Source: Candidatus Nanohalobium sp.
Lineage (GTDB): Archaea; Nanohalarchaeota; Nanosalinia; Nanosalinales; Nanosalinaceae
Assembly (NCBI GenBank): GCA_042217555.1
Contig: JBDGSL010000033.1
Span: 865-64,864 of the forward strand
DNA length: 64,000 bases
Direction of reading: 5' to 3'
The position numbers and the translations under genes are program-made. Below the pieces are notes generated by a model, which saw nothing but the letters and a program-made list of their open reading frames with translations, was not told the origin of the DNA and did not search any database. Positions within the stretch are counted from its first letter, which is position 1, and each line of letters starts with the position of its first letter. Positions 25,653 through 26,104 of this stretch are shown here, piece after piece.

Positions 25653-25784
25653 GCGGCGTTGGTCCAGTGGCTAAGACACGTGCTTGCCAACACTGTCTAA
25701 CTCCATCACGAGTTAACAGTTCGAGAAGCAGAACGCTTCAACGGCAAATTGCGCGTAACCCGGGTTCAAATCCCGGACGCCGCA
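25653..25784 (+). tRNA. tRNA-Gly(GCC) with 60-nt intron (25690-25749) at 37/38
   Basis: GCGGCGT/ACGCCGC acceptor, CGTGC-TTGCCA|T-GCGCG; TTGC/GCAA BHB helix; mature 72 nt. Confidence 0.92.
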
Positions 25785-26104
25785 TAAGGTTACGCTCTTA
25801 TATCGCAATAAACCATGTTTCACATGGCTTCTAGGATTTTTGGCAGAAATACCTTAGGTTTTCAACATCTTGGATGCCGCAAAACTTCTGAAAGTTTTAT
25901 CATCATAAGCCATGTTTCACATGGCTTTCAGGATTTTTGGCAGAAATATCTTTGATTTTCAAACCGAGGAACTTCGGTGCCGAGGAGAAGAAAAATCTCT
26001 GATTTTCGAATCCTGGACACCACAAATTTCTCTGAAATTTGCTTGGTTAAGAAAATCTCTGATTTTCGGATGCAGCATAAGGTTACGCTCTTATATCGCA
26101 ATAA
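25775..26104. repeat. hairpin-rich repeat array with three copies of the tRNA-Gly 3' end
   Basis: GGAYGCMGCA at 25775, 25872, 26068; 30-bp exact repeat 25782-25811 = 26075-26104; 58-bp repeat 25808-25865 vs 25905-25962 (52/58); GAAAATCTCTGATTTTC-type hairpins twice. Confidence 0.85.

What the first reader, a model, noticed from the sequence alone, without database searches (positions are those of the whole stretch)
25775..26104. Repeat-unit array behind tRNA-Gly with a swapped 23-nt segment matching the tRNA-Ser intron
Seen: 97-bp units of [tRNA 3' end GGAYGCCGCA][23-nt variable][58-nt constant hairpin block]. Unit 1 variable = TAAGGTTACGCTCTTATATCGCA. Unit 2 variable = AAACTTCTGAAAGTTTTATCATC, which with its flank is 28/30 identical to 60836-60865, 35 kb away. 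A third tRNA-end copy repeats the unit 1 segment. A read-through transcript would be antisense to the Ser intron. Inference: an array that grows by iterative integration at the tRNA end and stores intron-derived segments, or a trans-acting small RNA source.
Basis: partly seen in the sequence, partly recalled or inferred. Interest (0 to 1): 0.75.

Follow-up and report, generated by a model that had tools for sequence, protein, structure and literature searches.

The report
Hairpin cassettes piled behind tRNA-Gly
The repeats behind this salt-lake archaeon's tRNA-Gly gene are three short non-coding hairpin elements, each followed by a decayed copy of the tRNA's tail; the same element family also forms many of its tRNA introns, which links intron origin to mobile DNA.

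Summary
Behind tRNA-Gly(GCC), at 25653-25784, lie three non-coding cassettes. A 38-nt direct repeat brackets the array.

The "swapped 23 nt" are two different terminal hairpin modules placed in front of the same hairpin block. One has the loop GTTACGCT. The other is AAACTT-CTGA-AAGTTT followed by ATCATCA.

The 28/30 match to the tRNA-Ser intron is not a stored intron piece. That intron carries another, inverted copy of the second module. So do four more introns and three more tRNA flanks in this genome.

The organism is a nanohaloarchaeon. A covariance model of the three-hairpin element hits 42 of 70 genomes of the order, and all 21 base pairs covary. Copies abut tRNA 5' ends, tRNA 3' ends or intron borders. 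Their far end is followed by a 10-45-nt duplicate of the gene end. Two genomes of the same genus have the same locus with no intron and no array.

Best reading: tandem build-up of miniature non-autonomous integrative cassettes at the tRNA end. The enzyme is inferred, not shown. An RNA-level role is not excluded. The scan noted the same kind of element earlier in another nanohaloarchaeal genome. I found no publication describing it.

The parts
25653..25784 (+). tRNA-Gly(GCC) gene with a 60-nt canonical-position intron (about 25690-25749). Its last 10 nt, GGACGCCGCA (25775-25784), are copy a1 of the repeated end.
   Evidence: Rfam tRNA model, 44.5 bits. ARAGORN with introns allowed.
25785..25871 (+). 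Cassette 1. It contains hairpin hp3 (25784-25801: stem ATAAG/CTTAT, invariant loop GTTACGCT), a CGCAA linker, hairpin hp2 (CCATG-TTTCA-CATGG, 25813-25827) and the block CTTCTAGGATTTTTGGCAGAAATACC...
   Evidence: Sequence read directly. 27/27 identity with the copy behind tRNA-Glu at C37:12704-12730. The hp3 loop and its covarying stem are seen across the family.
25872..25881 (+). a2: decayed copy of the tRNA-Gly 3' end (GGATGCCGCA, 1 transition).
25882..26008 (+). Cassette 2. It contains head hairpin hp1 (AAACTT-CTGA-AAGTTT, 25882-25897), T, ATCATCA (25899-25905), hp2 (25910-25924), the block CTTTCAGGATTTTTGGCAGAAATATC..., a further stem (CCGAGG..) and the hairpin GAAAAATCTCTGATTTTCG.
   Evidence: 93-95% identical copies at C37:12727-12830 and C11:24117-24228. 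The head motif is found across the family.
26009..26024 (+). a3: decayed copy of the tRNA-Gly T-loop-to-3'-end segment (AATCCTGGACACCACA against AATCCCGGACGCCGCA, 3 transitions).
   Evidence: Sequence read directly. A similar decayed copy, AATCCTGAACGCCGA, follows the C11 cassette.
26025..26067 (+). Cassette 3: AATTTC-TCTG-AAATTT hairpin, GCTTGGTTAAG, then the GAAAATC-TCT-GATTTTC hairpin.
   Evidence: Homologue behind tRNA-Leu(GAG) at C37:23208-23247. Homologue in strain M3_22 between tRNA-Gly(TCC) and a head cassette (locus L060).
26068..26104 (+). a4 (GGATGCAGCA, 2 changes) plus the second copy of the first 27 nt of cassette 1 (hp3). With 25774-25811 it forms the 38-nt direct repeat that brackets the array.
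   Evidence: family D3 (95% identity).
60779..61002 (-). tRNA-Ser(CGA) gene with an intron of about 134-136 nt. The 3' part of the intron is an inverted head module (hp1 + ATCATCA, visible on the + strand at 60836-60865). Its 5' part is a diverged head in sense orientation. The last 6 nt of the intron pair with the anticodon loop to form the bulge-helix-bulge splice motif.
   Evidence: The bulge-helix-bulge pairing was worked out by hand from the sequence. ARAGORN calls the homologous gene Ser(cga) in other nanohaloarchaea (L071, L073).

Best explanation
SHOWN. The 330 bp behind tRNA-Gly(GCC) is a pile-up of three short non-coding hairpin cassettes. Each is followed by a progressively decayed copy of the last 10-16 nt of the tRNA, and a 38-nt direct repeat brackets the whole.

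The cassettes belong to a family found across the Nanohaloarchaeota, built from three covarying hairpin modules:
- hp3, with the invariant loop GTTACGCT;
- a linker, (A)CACGCAAG;
- hp2, variable in sequence;
- TGATGAT (ATCATCA on the other strand);
- hp1, AAACTT-CTGA-AAGTTT.

Unit 1 has hp3 plus linker in front of an hp2 block. Unit 2 has hp1 plus ATCATCA in front of the same block. The tRNA-Ser intron carries another hp1-ATCATCA copy in the opposite orientation, which explains the 28/30 match.

Family members sit exactly at tRNA 5' ends, at tRNA 3' ends, at the borders of canonical introns, and occasionally at the ends of protein genes. The far side of the element carries a duplicate (10-45 nt) of the gene end, so the gene stays intact.

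INFERRED. The cassettes are miniature, non-autonomous integrative elements. They enter by recombination in the segment running from the T-loop (or D-loop) to the gene terminus. This is the same att segment used by integrase-carrying elements at tRNA-Gly. Entry supplies a new gene end and displaces the old one. Repeated rounds, plus recombination between copies, give the array. This parallels the tandem accretion known for integrative elements and their decayed derivatives.

The cassettes persist because RNase P, tRNase Z and the splicing endonuclease remove leaders, trailers and introns from the transcript. Introns, leaders and trailers are therefore equally safe sites.
For: Anatomy.

Copies elsewhere in this genome:
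- behind tRNA-Glu; that copy ends with the tRNA-Gly end GACGCCGCA, so it came from a Gly-type site;
- at the end of contig C11;
- behind tRNA-Leu(GAG).

Enrichment at tRNA genes:
- Head motif: 9 copies in the genome, 8 in or within 300 nt of tRNA genes. Those regions make up 2.4% of the genome (p = 1e-12).
- hp3 core: 13 exact copies, 10 at tRNAs.

Distribution in public data:
- An exact-pattern scan of 185,579 species genomes gave 42 loci. 38 are in Nanohaloarchaea or unnamed archaeal MAGs, 3 are in MAGs labelled other archaeal phyla, and 1 is a chance hit in a Clostridium.
- 35 further loci were found in metagenomes, most of them tRNA-adjacent.

Duplicates flanking the element: 12-45 nt in about 20 independent cases. 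They start in the T-loop or D-loop and end at the gene terminus.

Structure:
- Covariance model R1 hits 42 of 70 genomes and 24 of 32 genera of the order.
- 95% of cells are paired and 21 of 21 pairs change on both sides. Covariation score 0.61, against 0.165 for shuffles (0 of 500 reach it) and at most 0.077 for slid controls.
- hp1 outer pair: A-T 31, G-C 18, C-G 3, one mismatch. hp2 mean folding energy is -11.5 against -6.1 for shuffles (p = 4e-10).

Recent gain: the syntenic tRNA-Gly locus in same-genus genomes G001 and G003 has no intron and no array. In G001 only about 49 nt separate the tRNA from the next gene.

Integrase link:
- In this genome, a truncated tyrosine-recombinase gene at C3:1-633 lies next to CCCGGACGCCGCATAAGGTTACGCTCTTATATC, a 33-nt copy of window 25772-25804.
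- In G021, its 544-aa homologue lies next to ATCCCGGACGCCGCA, about 28 kb from tRNA-Gly(TCC) (an inferred integrated element). Hairpin cassettes and a head cassette follow directly.
- The genome has 10 integrase matches over the Pfam cut-off (12 in all) in 1.3 Mb.

The duplicated 3' ends are not followed by CCA (sequences). Mature tRNAs carry a post-transcriptionally added CCA, so the duplicates were copied from DNA (or a pre-CCA transcript), not from mature tRNA.
Against: - No recombinase has been tied to the cassettes.
- The integrase-carrying 28-kb element in G021 carries neither the hp1 head nor hp3 at its ends.
- The same head sequence sits next to more than 12 different tRNA species and some protein genes. 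One integrase should not recognise all of these.
- The head is 90-100% conserved between genera whose neighbouring genes are about 70% identical. Copies with hp3 are co-oriented with the adjacent tRNA 19:1 and 10:0 in this genome. Both facts fit an RNA-level function or constraint better than inert DNA.
- No copy was found in phage, plasmid or viral-contig collections. No autonomous partner is therefore known.
- The order of events in the window's array cannot be reconstructed unambiguously. Units 1 and 2 could partly stem from a local 97-nt duplication.
Confidence: 0.6

Rival explanations
1. Functional tRNA-linked small RNAs. The cassettes are structured RNA modules transcribed with the tRNA as leader, intron or trailer. 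They are released by RNase P, the splicing endonuclease or tRNase Z, as with the C/D-box RNA in the haloarchaeal tRNA-Trp intron or the dicistronic tRNA-snoRNA genes of plants. Sense and antisense heads in different pre-tRNAs could pair in trans. Mobility would be secondary.
For: - Invariant loops and linkers with strongly covarying stems.
- Copies with hp3 are co-oriented with the neighbouring tRNA 19:1.
- The head is 100% identical behind tRNA-Gly in four genera while the hp2 loop and downstream sequence diverge.
- The tRNA-Ser intron is 97% identical between genera whose flanks are 66-74% identical.
- In this genome, 4 heads are in sense and 4 in antisense relative to their tRNA, so 24-nt duplexes between pre-tRNAs are possible.
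- Cassettes 1 and 2 each end in a T5 run after hp2.
Against: - The hp1 head occurs in both orientations relative to transcription. An RNA function would have to tolerate CUGA or UCAG loops and AUCAUCA or UGAUGAU linkers alike.
- No Rfam family matches, even at E <= 1-10.
- A C box is present on one strand, but there is no properly placed D box.
- The flanking duplicates of gene ends are signatures of insertion and are not needed for an RNA gene.
- Many tRNAs and many genomes lack the cassettes.
- No expression data could be obtained.
Confidence: 0.2
2. MITE-like transposition by an unknown transposase that makes long, variable staggered cuts. Selection then keeps only insertions whose target duplication preserves a gene end.
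For: - Non-tRNA insertions have duplications of 17-45 nt. These include the 3' end of a histidine-kinase gene duplicated up to its stop codon, and Shine-Dalgarno/start regions.
- The same head sits next to many unrelated targets.
- The genome has one IS200/IS605 TnpA and five TnpB matches over the Pfam cut-off (eight at E<=0.01).
Against: - There are no terminal inverted repeats.
- Duplication length ranges from 8 to 45 nt, which no known transposase produces.
- One duplication border coincides exactly with the gene terminus in most cases. Random staggered cuts would not give this.
- IS200/IS605 elements make no target duplication and need a fixed target tetranucleotide, which is absent.
- The IS ends do not resemble the cassette.
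Confidence: 0.1
3. A purely local tandem (slippage) duplication of a 97-nt unit followed by divergence, with no mobility.
For: Two units at exactly 97-nt spacing share a 68-nt block at 85% identity.
Against: - The 23-27 nt in front of the block are unrelated. Each belongs to a separate module found at many other loci and in other genomes.
- Cassette 3 and copy a3 do not fit the period.
- Near-identical cassettes lie behind tRNA-Glu and on contig C11.
- Tandem Repeats Finder finds no array.
Confidence: 0.05
4. A memory-type array (CRISPR-like) that stores intron-derived segments, or an assembly artefact (collapsed or chimeric repeat).
For: - The array superficially alternates repeat (tRNA end) and variable segment.
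- The genome is an 88-contig MAG, and contigs C11 and C3 break at these repeats.
Against: - The 'variable' segments are conserved family modules, not unique captures.
- The repeats are decaying gene-end copies of 10-16 nt.
- No cas genes are nearby.
- The same architecture exists in complete, single-contig genomes: strain M3_22 (CP046106), Nanosalina VS9-1 (NZ_CP180230) and G021.
- The two units differ by 15%, so they would not collapse in assembly.
Confidence: 0.03

Closest known systems
Partial tRNA direct repeats (attL/attR) left by archaeal integrative elements (SSV1- or pNOB8-type), and the mobile-element model of tRNA gene disruption (Sugahara et al. 2012, PMC3293823)
   Same: - A duplicated segment runs from a tRNA loop to the gene terminus, and the gene is restored by the incoming copy.
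- An integrase gene lies next to one such copy of the tRNA-Gly end in this genome (C3) and in G021.
- Several rounds have occurred at one tRNA.
   Different: - The inserted units are 43-127 nt and non-coding, with no integrase, instead of kilobases.
- One conserved head sequence accompanies many different tRNA targets.
- The same units also form introns.
Tandem accretion of integrative elements and their decayed, cis-mobilisable derivatives (CIMEs of Streptococcus thermophilus; from my own knowledge, not checked in a paper here)
   Same: - Arrays of att copy - element - att copy - element at one tRNA or gene end.
- Elements lack their own recombinase.
- In G021 a full-size integrase-bearing element and the mini-cassettes lie in one array.
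   Different: - CIMEs are kilobase-sized remnants of ICEs in bacteria.
- Here the units are tiny, structured and conserved across an archaeal order.
tRNA intron transposition in Thermoproteales (Fujishima et al. 2010; reviewed in PMC4090602 and PMC4033280)
   Same: - Related intron sequences occur in different tRNA genes of one genome.
- Most tRNA genes are interrupted.
- Intron presence is polymorphic between close relatives.
   Different: - There, similarity is among short introns at many non-canonical positions, and no DNA-level insertion signature was described.
- Here the same element is also found outside the tRNA, with flanking gene-end duplications.
- All introns seen here are at 37/38.
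MITEs and REP/BIME-type palindromic repeats
   Same: Short, non-coding, hairpin-forming, multi-copy, intergenic, and nested within one another.
   Different: - No terminal inverted repeats.
- Long and variable flanking duplications that end at gene termini.
- Extreme preference for tRNA genes.
- No associated transposase identified.
C/D-box sRNA in the haloarchaeal tRNA-Trp intron; tRNA-snoRNA dicistronic genes
   Same: A structured small RNA embedded in or attached to a pre-tRNA and freed by tRNA-processing enzymes. A UGAUGA box is present on one strand.
   Different: - No D box at the required position.
- No guide-target logic.
- No Rfam hit.
- The head occurs in both orientations.

Membership tests
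CRISPR-like spacer array | Near-identical repeats of 24-48 nt separating unique spacers, with a leader and cas genes nearby | tested here: not met
   The repeats are 10-16-nt decaying copies of the tRNA end. The 'spacers' are homologous to each other and to family copies elsewhere. Neighbouring genes are thioredoxin reductase, an SDR, RmuC and a PD-(D/E)XK nuclease.
Integrase-mediated integrative element (att duplication at a tRNA gene) | Direct repeat identical to the tRNA segment from a loop to the 3' (or 5') terminus on both sides of the insert | tested here: met
   Copies a1-a4 in the window. Exact duplicates of 12-26 nt at many other tRNAs. No copies on the wrong side in controls.
Integrase-mediated integrative element (att duplication at a tRNA gene) | A tyrosine or serine recombinase encoded within the element, or shown to act on it in trans | tested here: not met
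   The cassettes are 43-127 nt and have no ORF. Integrases exist elsewhere: 12 matches, 10 over the Pfam cut-off, two of them next to tRNA-Gly end copies. Action in trans is not testable with these tools.
MITE | Terminal inverted repeats and a short target-site duplication of fixed length matching a parent IS | tested here: not met
   The ends of the three-hairpin element (CGACTGGTTACG... / ...CAGAAGTTT) are not inverted repeats. Duplications are 8-45 nt. The IS200/IS605 ends are unlike the cassette.
Archaeal bulge-helix-bulge (BHB) tRNA intron | Located within a tRNA, with two 3-nt bulges flanking a 4-bp helix at the exon-intron borders | tested here: not met
   The array lies outside the tRNA, after nt 73, so it is not an intron. 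For the tRNA-Ser intron that carries the matching head, a BHB (h GCAGA/TCTGC, H TTCG/CGAA, bulges AGC and GTA) can be drawn by hand from the sequence. It is met there only by inspection.
C/D-box sRNA | C box RUGAUGA near the 5' end, D box CUGA near the 3' end, C'/D' boxes, and 10-12-nt guides ending 5 nt upstream of D or D' | tested here: not met
   AUGAUGA is present on the minus strand only. No CUGA lies at guide distance downstream; the sequence there is UUUCAGAAG. Rfam C/D families score at most 18 bits against cut-offs of 44-50.
Known small self-cleaving ribozymes (hammerhead and others) | A match to the Rfam covariance models; for hammerhead, CUGAUGA-helix-GAAA-helix-UH | tested here: not met
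   CUGAUGA occurs in many copies, but no conserved GAAA follows hp1. There are no ribozyme hits at E <= 1.
Nanohaloarchaeal three-hairpin cassette family (defined here) | hp1 NAACTT-CTGA-AAGTTN + N + ATCATCA + hp2, and/or hp3 with loop GTTAYGCT + CGCAA linker + hp2, abutting a gene end, with a duplicate of that end on the far side | tested here: met
   Cassette 2 matches the head 23/23, and model R1 hits it (C27:26746-26811). Cassette 1 has hp3 with a perfect 5-bp stem and the invariant loop. Both are bounded by tRNA-Gly end copies.

The most novel reading that the evidence does not exclude
The three-hairpin cassettes are an active class of mobile elements that both insert next to tRNA genes and create or colonise tRNA introns. 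They would use the cell's tRNA-processing enzymes to make their insertion harmless, and perhaps to release a functional or self-propagating structured RNA. This would be a living example of the long-proposed route from mobile-element integration to archaeal tRNA introns, with leaders, trailers and introns as interchangeable states of one element.
Probability: 0.3. Interest if true: 0.85.

Novelty: new variant of a known kind. Interest (0 to 1): 0.62.

Why it matters
How archaeal tRNA introns arise and move is an old open question. Integration of mobile elements into tRNA genes has been proposed as the cause (PMC3293823; Randau and Soll, from my own knowledge), but the evidence has been indirect.

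Here one sequence family is seen in three states:
- as an intron at 37/38;
- as a 5' leader insertion;
- as a 3' trailer insertion.

In the last two states it carries clear DNA-level insertion signatures. Its presence also varies between genomes of one genus.

Nanohaloarchaea can be grown in co-culture, and several complete genomes carry the family. Excision, integration and RNA processing of the cassettes can therefore be tested directly.

There is also a practical point for annotation. tRNA finders in bacterial mode miss these genes altogether (0 found). Even with introns allowed, they miscall some (Ser called as Arg).

Tried and rejected
- ARAGORN in default mode found no tRNA. Runs with introns allowed were needed.
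- Tandem Repeats Finder found no array.
- Rfam searches at gathering and at E-value thresholds found only tRNAs. Weak C/D-box and miRNA matches are noise.
- C/D-box sRNA, K-turn and hammerhead readings were worked through by hand and dropped. The D box or GA partner is missing or not conserved (about half of copies have TCAG after hp2; sequences), and no GAAA follows hp1.
- Promoter reading of the head: no conserved TATA-like box at -26. This genome's tRNA promoters lie at about -35 to -50.
- Terminator reading: only the Gly-type head has a T4 run.
- IS200/IS605 origin: the element ends at C11 and the TnpB 3' regions do not resemble the cassette.
- Origin from mature tRNA or tRNA fragments by reverse transcription: rejected, because the duplicated ends lack CCA.
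- Searches for an autonomous or viral carrier found nothing in IMG/VR, GenBank phages or PLSDB plasmids.
- A search for an 'empty-site' allele of this locus in JGI metagenomes found nothing.
- The attR of the integrase island at tRNA-Leu(CAG) was not found on this contig.
No read-level or RNA evidence could be obtained.
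Full report
**Observation**

I read 25400-26500 and 60600-61100.

- tRNA-Gly(GCC) spans 25653-25784 and has a 60-nt intron at the canonical position. Rfam scores it 44.5 bits, and ARAGORN finds it once introns are allowed.
- Its last ten bases, GGACGCCGCA (25775-25784), recur as GGATGCCGCA at 25872-25881, exactly 97 nt later.
- They recur again as GGATGCAGCA at 26068-26077.
- A 68-nt block is repeated at spacing 97 with 85% identity.
- A 38-nt direct repeat (25774-25811 / 26067-26104, 95%) brackets the whole region.
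- The 30-nt stretch from 25882 matches 60836-60865 at 93%. By my estimate that is about 4e-10 expected by chance in the window.

It differs from AATCCCGGACGCCGCA by three transitions. The region is therefore three cassettes of 87, 127 and 43 nt separated by decaying end copies, not a regular array. Tandem Repeats Finder reports none.

**Organism and setting**

The window lies in a 1.3-Mb, 88-contig genome that is 94% complete. An exact-pattern scan of the species-genome collection with AACTTCTGAAAGTTNNATCATCA returned 42 loci:
- 38 in Nanohaloarchaea or unnamed archaeal MAGs, including complete genomes CP046106 and NZ_CP180230;
- three in MAGs labelled other archaeal phyla;
- one chance hit in a Clostridium.

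The organism is therefore a nanohaloarchaeon. ARAGORN finds 42 tRNA genes, 35 of them with predicted introns of 33-268 nt.

The array sits between the convergent ends of tRNA-Gly and an uncharacterised gene at 26150-26512.

**The cassettes are members of dispersed families**

Cassette 2 has copies that are 93-95% identical in two places: behind tRNA-Glu(TTC) at C37:12727-12830, and at the end of contig C11.

The tRNA-Glu copy is informative. It begins with the same 27 nt as cassette 1. It ends with GACGCCGCA followed by TAAGGTTACGCTCTT, which is the tRNA-Gly end, not the tRNA-Glu end. It was therefore copied from a Gly-type site.

Cassette 3 has a homologue behind tRNA-Leu(GAG). It also has one in strain M3_22, between tRNA-Gly(TCC) and a head cassette.

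**The 'variable' segments are two conserved modules**

The segment of unit 2 is a head made of:
- hairpin hp1 (NAACTT-CTGA-AAGTTN);
- one base;
- ATCATCA;
- 1-4 bases;
- a second hairpin, hp2.

In 53 distinct copies the outer hp1 pair covaries: A-T 31, G-C 18, C-G 3, and one mismatch. hp2 is almost always present but varies in sequence. Its mean folding energy is -11.5 kcal/mol against -6.1 for shuffles (Wilcoxon p = 4e-10).

The segment of unit 1 is a third hairpin, hp3. It has an invariant 8-nt loop, GTTACGCT, and a freely covarying stem. The stem is ATAAG/CTTAT here and CGACTG/CAGTCG, CGCCTG/CAGGCG or GTATC/GATAC elsewhere. A CGCAA linker and hp2 follow it.

Full elements read hp3 - ACACGCAAG - hp2 - TGATGAT - hp1.

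A covariance model built from six such elements hits 42 of 70 genomes and 24 of 32 genera of the order. On 34 aligned hits:
- 95% of cells pair;
- all 21 pairs show changes on both sides;
- the covariation score is 0.61, against 0.165 for shuffles (0 of 500 reach it) and at most 0.077 for slid controls.

One caveat applies. That alignment was fitted to the model, so the pair counts lean towards its structure.

**Where the elements sit**

In this genome, 8 of 9 heads and 10 of 13 exact hp3 cores lie in or within 300 nt of tRNA genes. Those regions make up 2.4% of the genome (p = 1e-12 and 2e-14).

Across relatives and metagenomes the hp1 end abuts tRNA-derived sequence. The positions are:
- the nucleotide after position 73;
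- the nucleotide before +1, with the element inverted;
- the start of a canonical intron, or its end when inverted;
- the break-point of a duplicated tRNA fragment.

On the far side of the element lies a duplicate of the gene end. It is 12-26 nt, running from the T-loop to the 3' terminus, or 13-21 nt, running from +1 to the D-loop. Controls on the wrong side of the tRNA found none.

A few copies sit at protein genes:
- In three MAGs the element follows a histidine-kinase gene whose last ~13-19 codons and stop codon are duplicated.
- Others duplicate a Shine-Dalgarno or start region.

Arrays with several units occur elsewhere too: L076, L051, L060, and the tRNA-Pro leaders.

**The match to the tRNA-Ser intron**

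The gene at 60779-61002 (-) is tRNA-Ser(CGA). ARAGORN's Arg(TCT) call mis-places the splice site. ARAGORN calls the homologous gene Ser(cga) in other nanohaloarchaea (L071, L073). A bulge-helix-bulge motif with the anticodon CGA can be drawn by hand from the sequence.

Its intron begins with a diverged head in sense orientation. It ends with an inverted head followed by six bases that pair with the anticodon loop. The 28/30 match is therefore family membership.

Heads also lie in the introns of tRNA-Leu(TAA), Leu(CAG), Thr(GGT) and Trp. hp3 opens the introns of tRNA-Thr(CGT), Thr(TGT) and Gly(TCC).

**Recent change**

In two genomes of the same genus (G001, G003) the locus is syntenic, with thioredoxin reductase upstream and the same downstream gene. 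There, tRNA-Gly has no intron and no cassette. In G001 about 49 nt separate it from the next gene.

In another genus (G006) tRNA-Gly carries the homologous intron and a single head cassette followed by ATCCCGGACGCCGCG.

The tRNA-Ser gene with its intron is 97% identical between this genome and G006. The flanking genes are 66-74% identical.

**Mechanism**

The duplications are those expected from site-specific integration into tRNA genes with crossover in a loop. The element supplies the gene end and the old end is displaced.

Direct support for integrase activity at this very segment:
- A truncated tyrosine-recombinase gene at C3:1-633 lies beside a 33-nt copy of window 25772-25804.
- Its 544-aa homologue in the complete genome G021 lies beside ATCCCGGACGCCGCA, about 28 kb from tRNA-Gly(TCC) on the same strand, which I read as an integrated element. 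Hairpin cassettes and a head cassette follow directly.
- That att copy has the same extent as the cassette duplicates a3 and G006's.
- The genome has 10 integrase matches over the Pfam cut-off (12 in all).

The duplicated ends lack CCA, so they were copied from DNA, not from mature tRNA.

I therefore read the array as a tandem build-up of miniature, non-autonomous integrative cassettes. Recombination between copies later reshaped it. The tRNA-Glu copy looks like the window's array collapsed across its two internal repeats.

This part is inference:
- No enzyme is tied to the cassettes.
- The 28-kb element has no cassette modules at its ends.
- One head sequence accompanies more than twelve different targets.

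**What does not fit simple selfish DNA**

- Copies bearing hp3 are co-oriented with the adjacent tRNA 19:1 in the model hits and 10:0 in this genome.
- Loops and linkers are invariant across an order.
- Behind tRNA-Gly, the 30-nt head is fully identical in three genera and differs at one base in the fourth, while neighbouring sequence diverges.

These facts point to a constraint acting on the transcript or on a single-stranded form. I keep a functional-RNA rival at 0.2.

Against that rival:
- The hp1 head occurs in both orientations.
- No Rfam family matches.
- C/D-box, K-turn and hammerhead readings fail on defining features.

Two T5 runs, the first ~25840-25844 and the second 97 nt further on, lie between the tRNA and the Ser-complementary head. 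A read-through antisense RNA is therefore not a given. This rests on established knowledge of archaeal termination at oligo-T.

**Limits**

- Complete genomes with the same architecture argue against an artefact.
- Nothing was found in phage, plasmid or viral collections.
- No empty-site allele was found in metagenomes.
- Five literature searches found no description of these elements. The nearest concepts are the mobile-element model of tRNA gene disruption (PMC3293823) and the reviews of intron transposition (PMC4090602, PMC4033280).
- Earlier notes of this scan on another nanohaloarchaeal genome reached the same kind of conclusion. I saw them only after my own analysis. I count them as agreement, not as evidence.

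Noticed in passing
window 1-23585: A 448-aa tyrosine integrase (22239-23585, -) lies directly downstream of tRNA-Leu(CAG) and tRNA-Arg(CCT). It is followed by a low-GC stretch (0.39-0.44 against 0.48) up to the window start. That stretch carries a 1062-aa AAA_5 + EVE protein (17772-20960), which resembles a McrBC-like defence gene. This is probably an integrated island. Its far att copy is not on this contig.
   Followed up: partly
window 60480-60780 (-): tRNA-Ser(CGA) is followed by two further exact 13-nt copies of its 3' end, 62 and 282 nt downstream, with hairpin-rich sequence between them. This is the same architecture as behind tRNA-Gly.
   Followed up: partly
window 60700-61003 vs L061 (genome G006): The tRNA-Ser gene, its intron and the first downstream unit are 97% identical over 300 nt to a genome of another genus. 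Flanking coding DNA is 66-74% identical. This suggests either strong constraint or recent horizontal exchange.
   Followed up: partly
whole genome G000: The tRNA introns fall into at least three sequence families shared between different tRNAs. They are the hp3/hp1 cassette type, an 'ACAC...GTTYGAGAAG' type (Gly-GCC, Leu-CAG, Gln) and an 'AACCTYAAGTYC' type (Cys, Arg-TCG, Pro-TGG, Leu-CAA, Leu-TAG).
   Followed up: no
whole genome G000, e.g. window 25992-26008 and 26052-26068: The tiny hairpin AAAATC-N3/4-GATTTTC occurs at 19 loci, against about 0.1 expected by my own estimate. Several are inside tRNA introns or just before duplicated tRNA ends. Similar GAAACTC-N4-GAGTTTC hairpins are nested inside larger cassettes.
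   Followed up: partly
G000 contig C3:1-750: The contig starts inside an integrase gene whose upstream region ends in a 33-nt copy of the tRNA-Gly end plus hp3. The partner attL is probably the CCCGGACGCCGCA copy about 127 nt behind tRNA-Gly(TCC) on C76. The assembly breaks there.
   Followed up: partly
L043, L070, L075 (MAGs labelled Hydrothermarchaeota or Methanobacteriota): A minimal 56-nt head (hp1 with a C-G outer pair, ATCATCA, hp2) sits after a histidine-kinase gene, with the gene's last ~40-57 nt duplicated. The module therefore exists outside Nanohaloarchaeota, or these contigs are mis-binned.
   Followed up: partly
window 60779-61002 and the whole window: ARAGORN in default mode finds no tRNA in the window. 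With introns allowed it calls tRNA-Ser(CGA) as Arg(TCT). Rfam at the gathering threshold finds only 2 of the 4 tRNA genes.
   Followed up: yes
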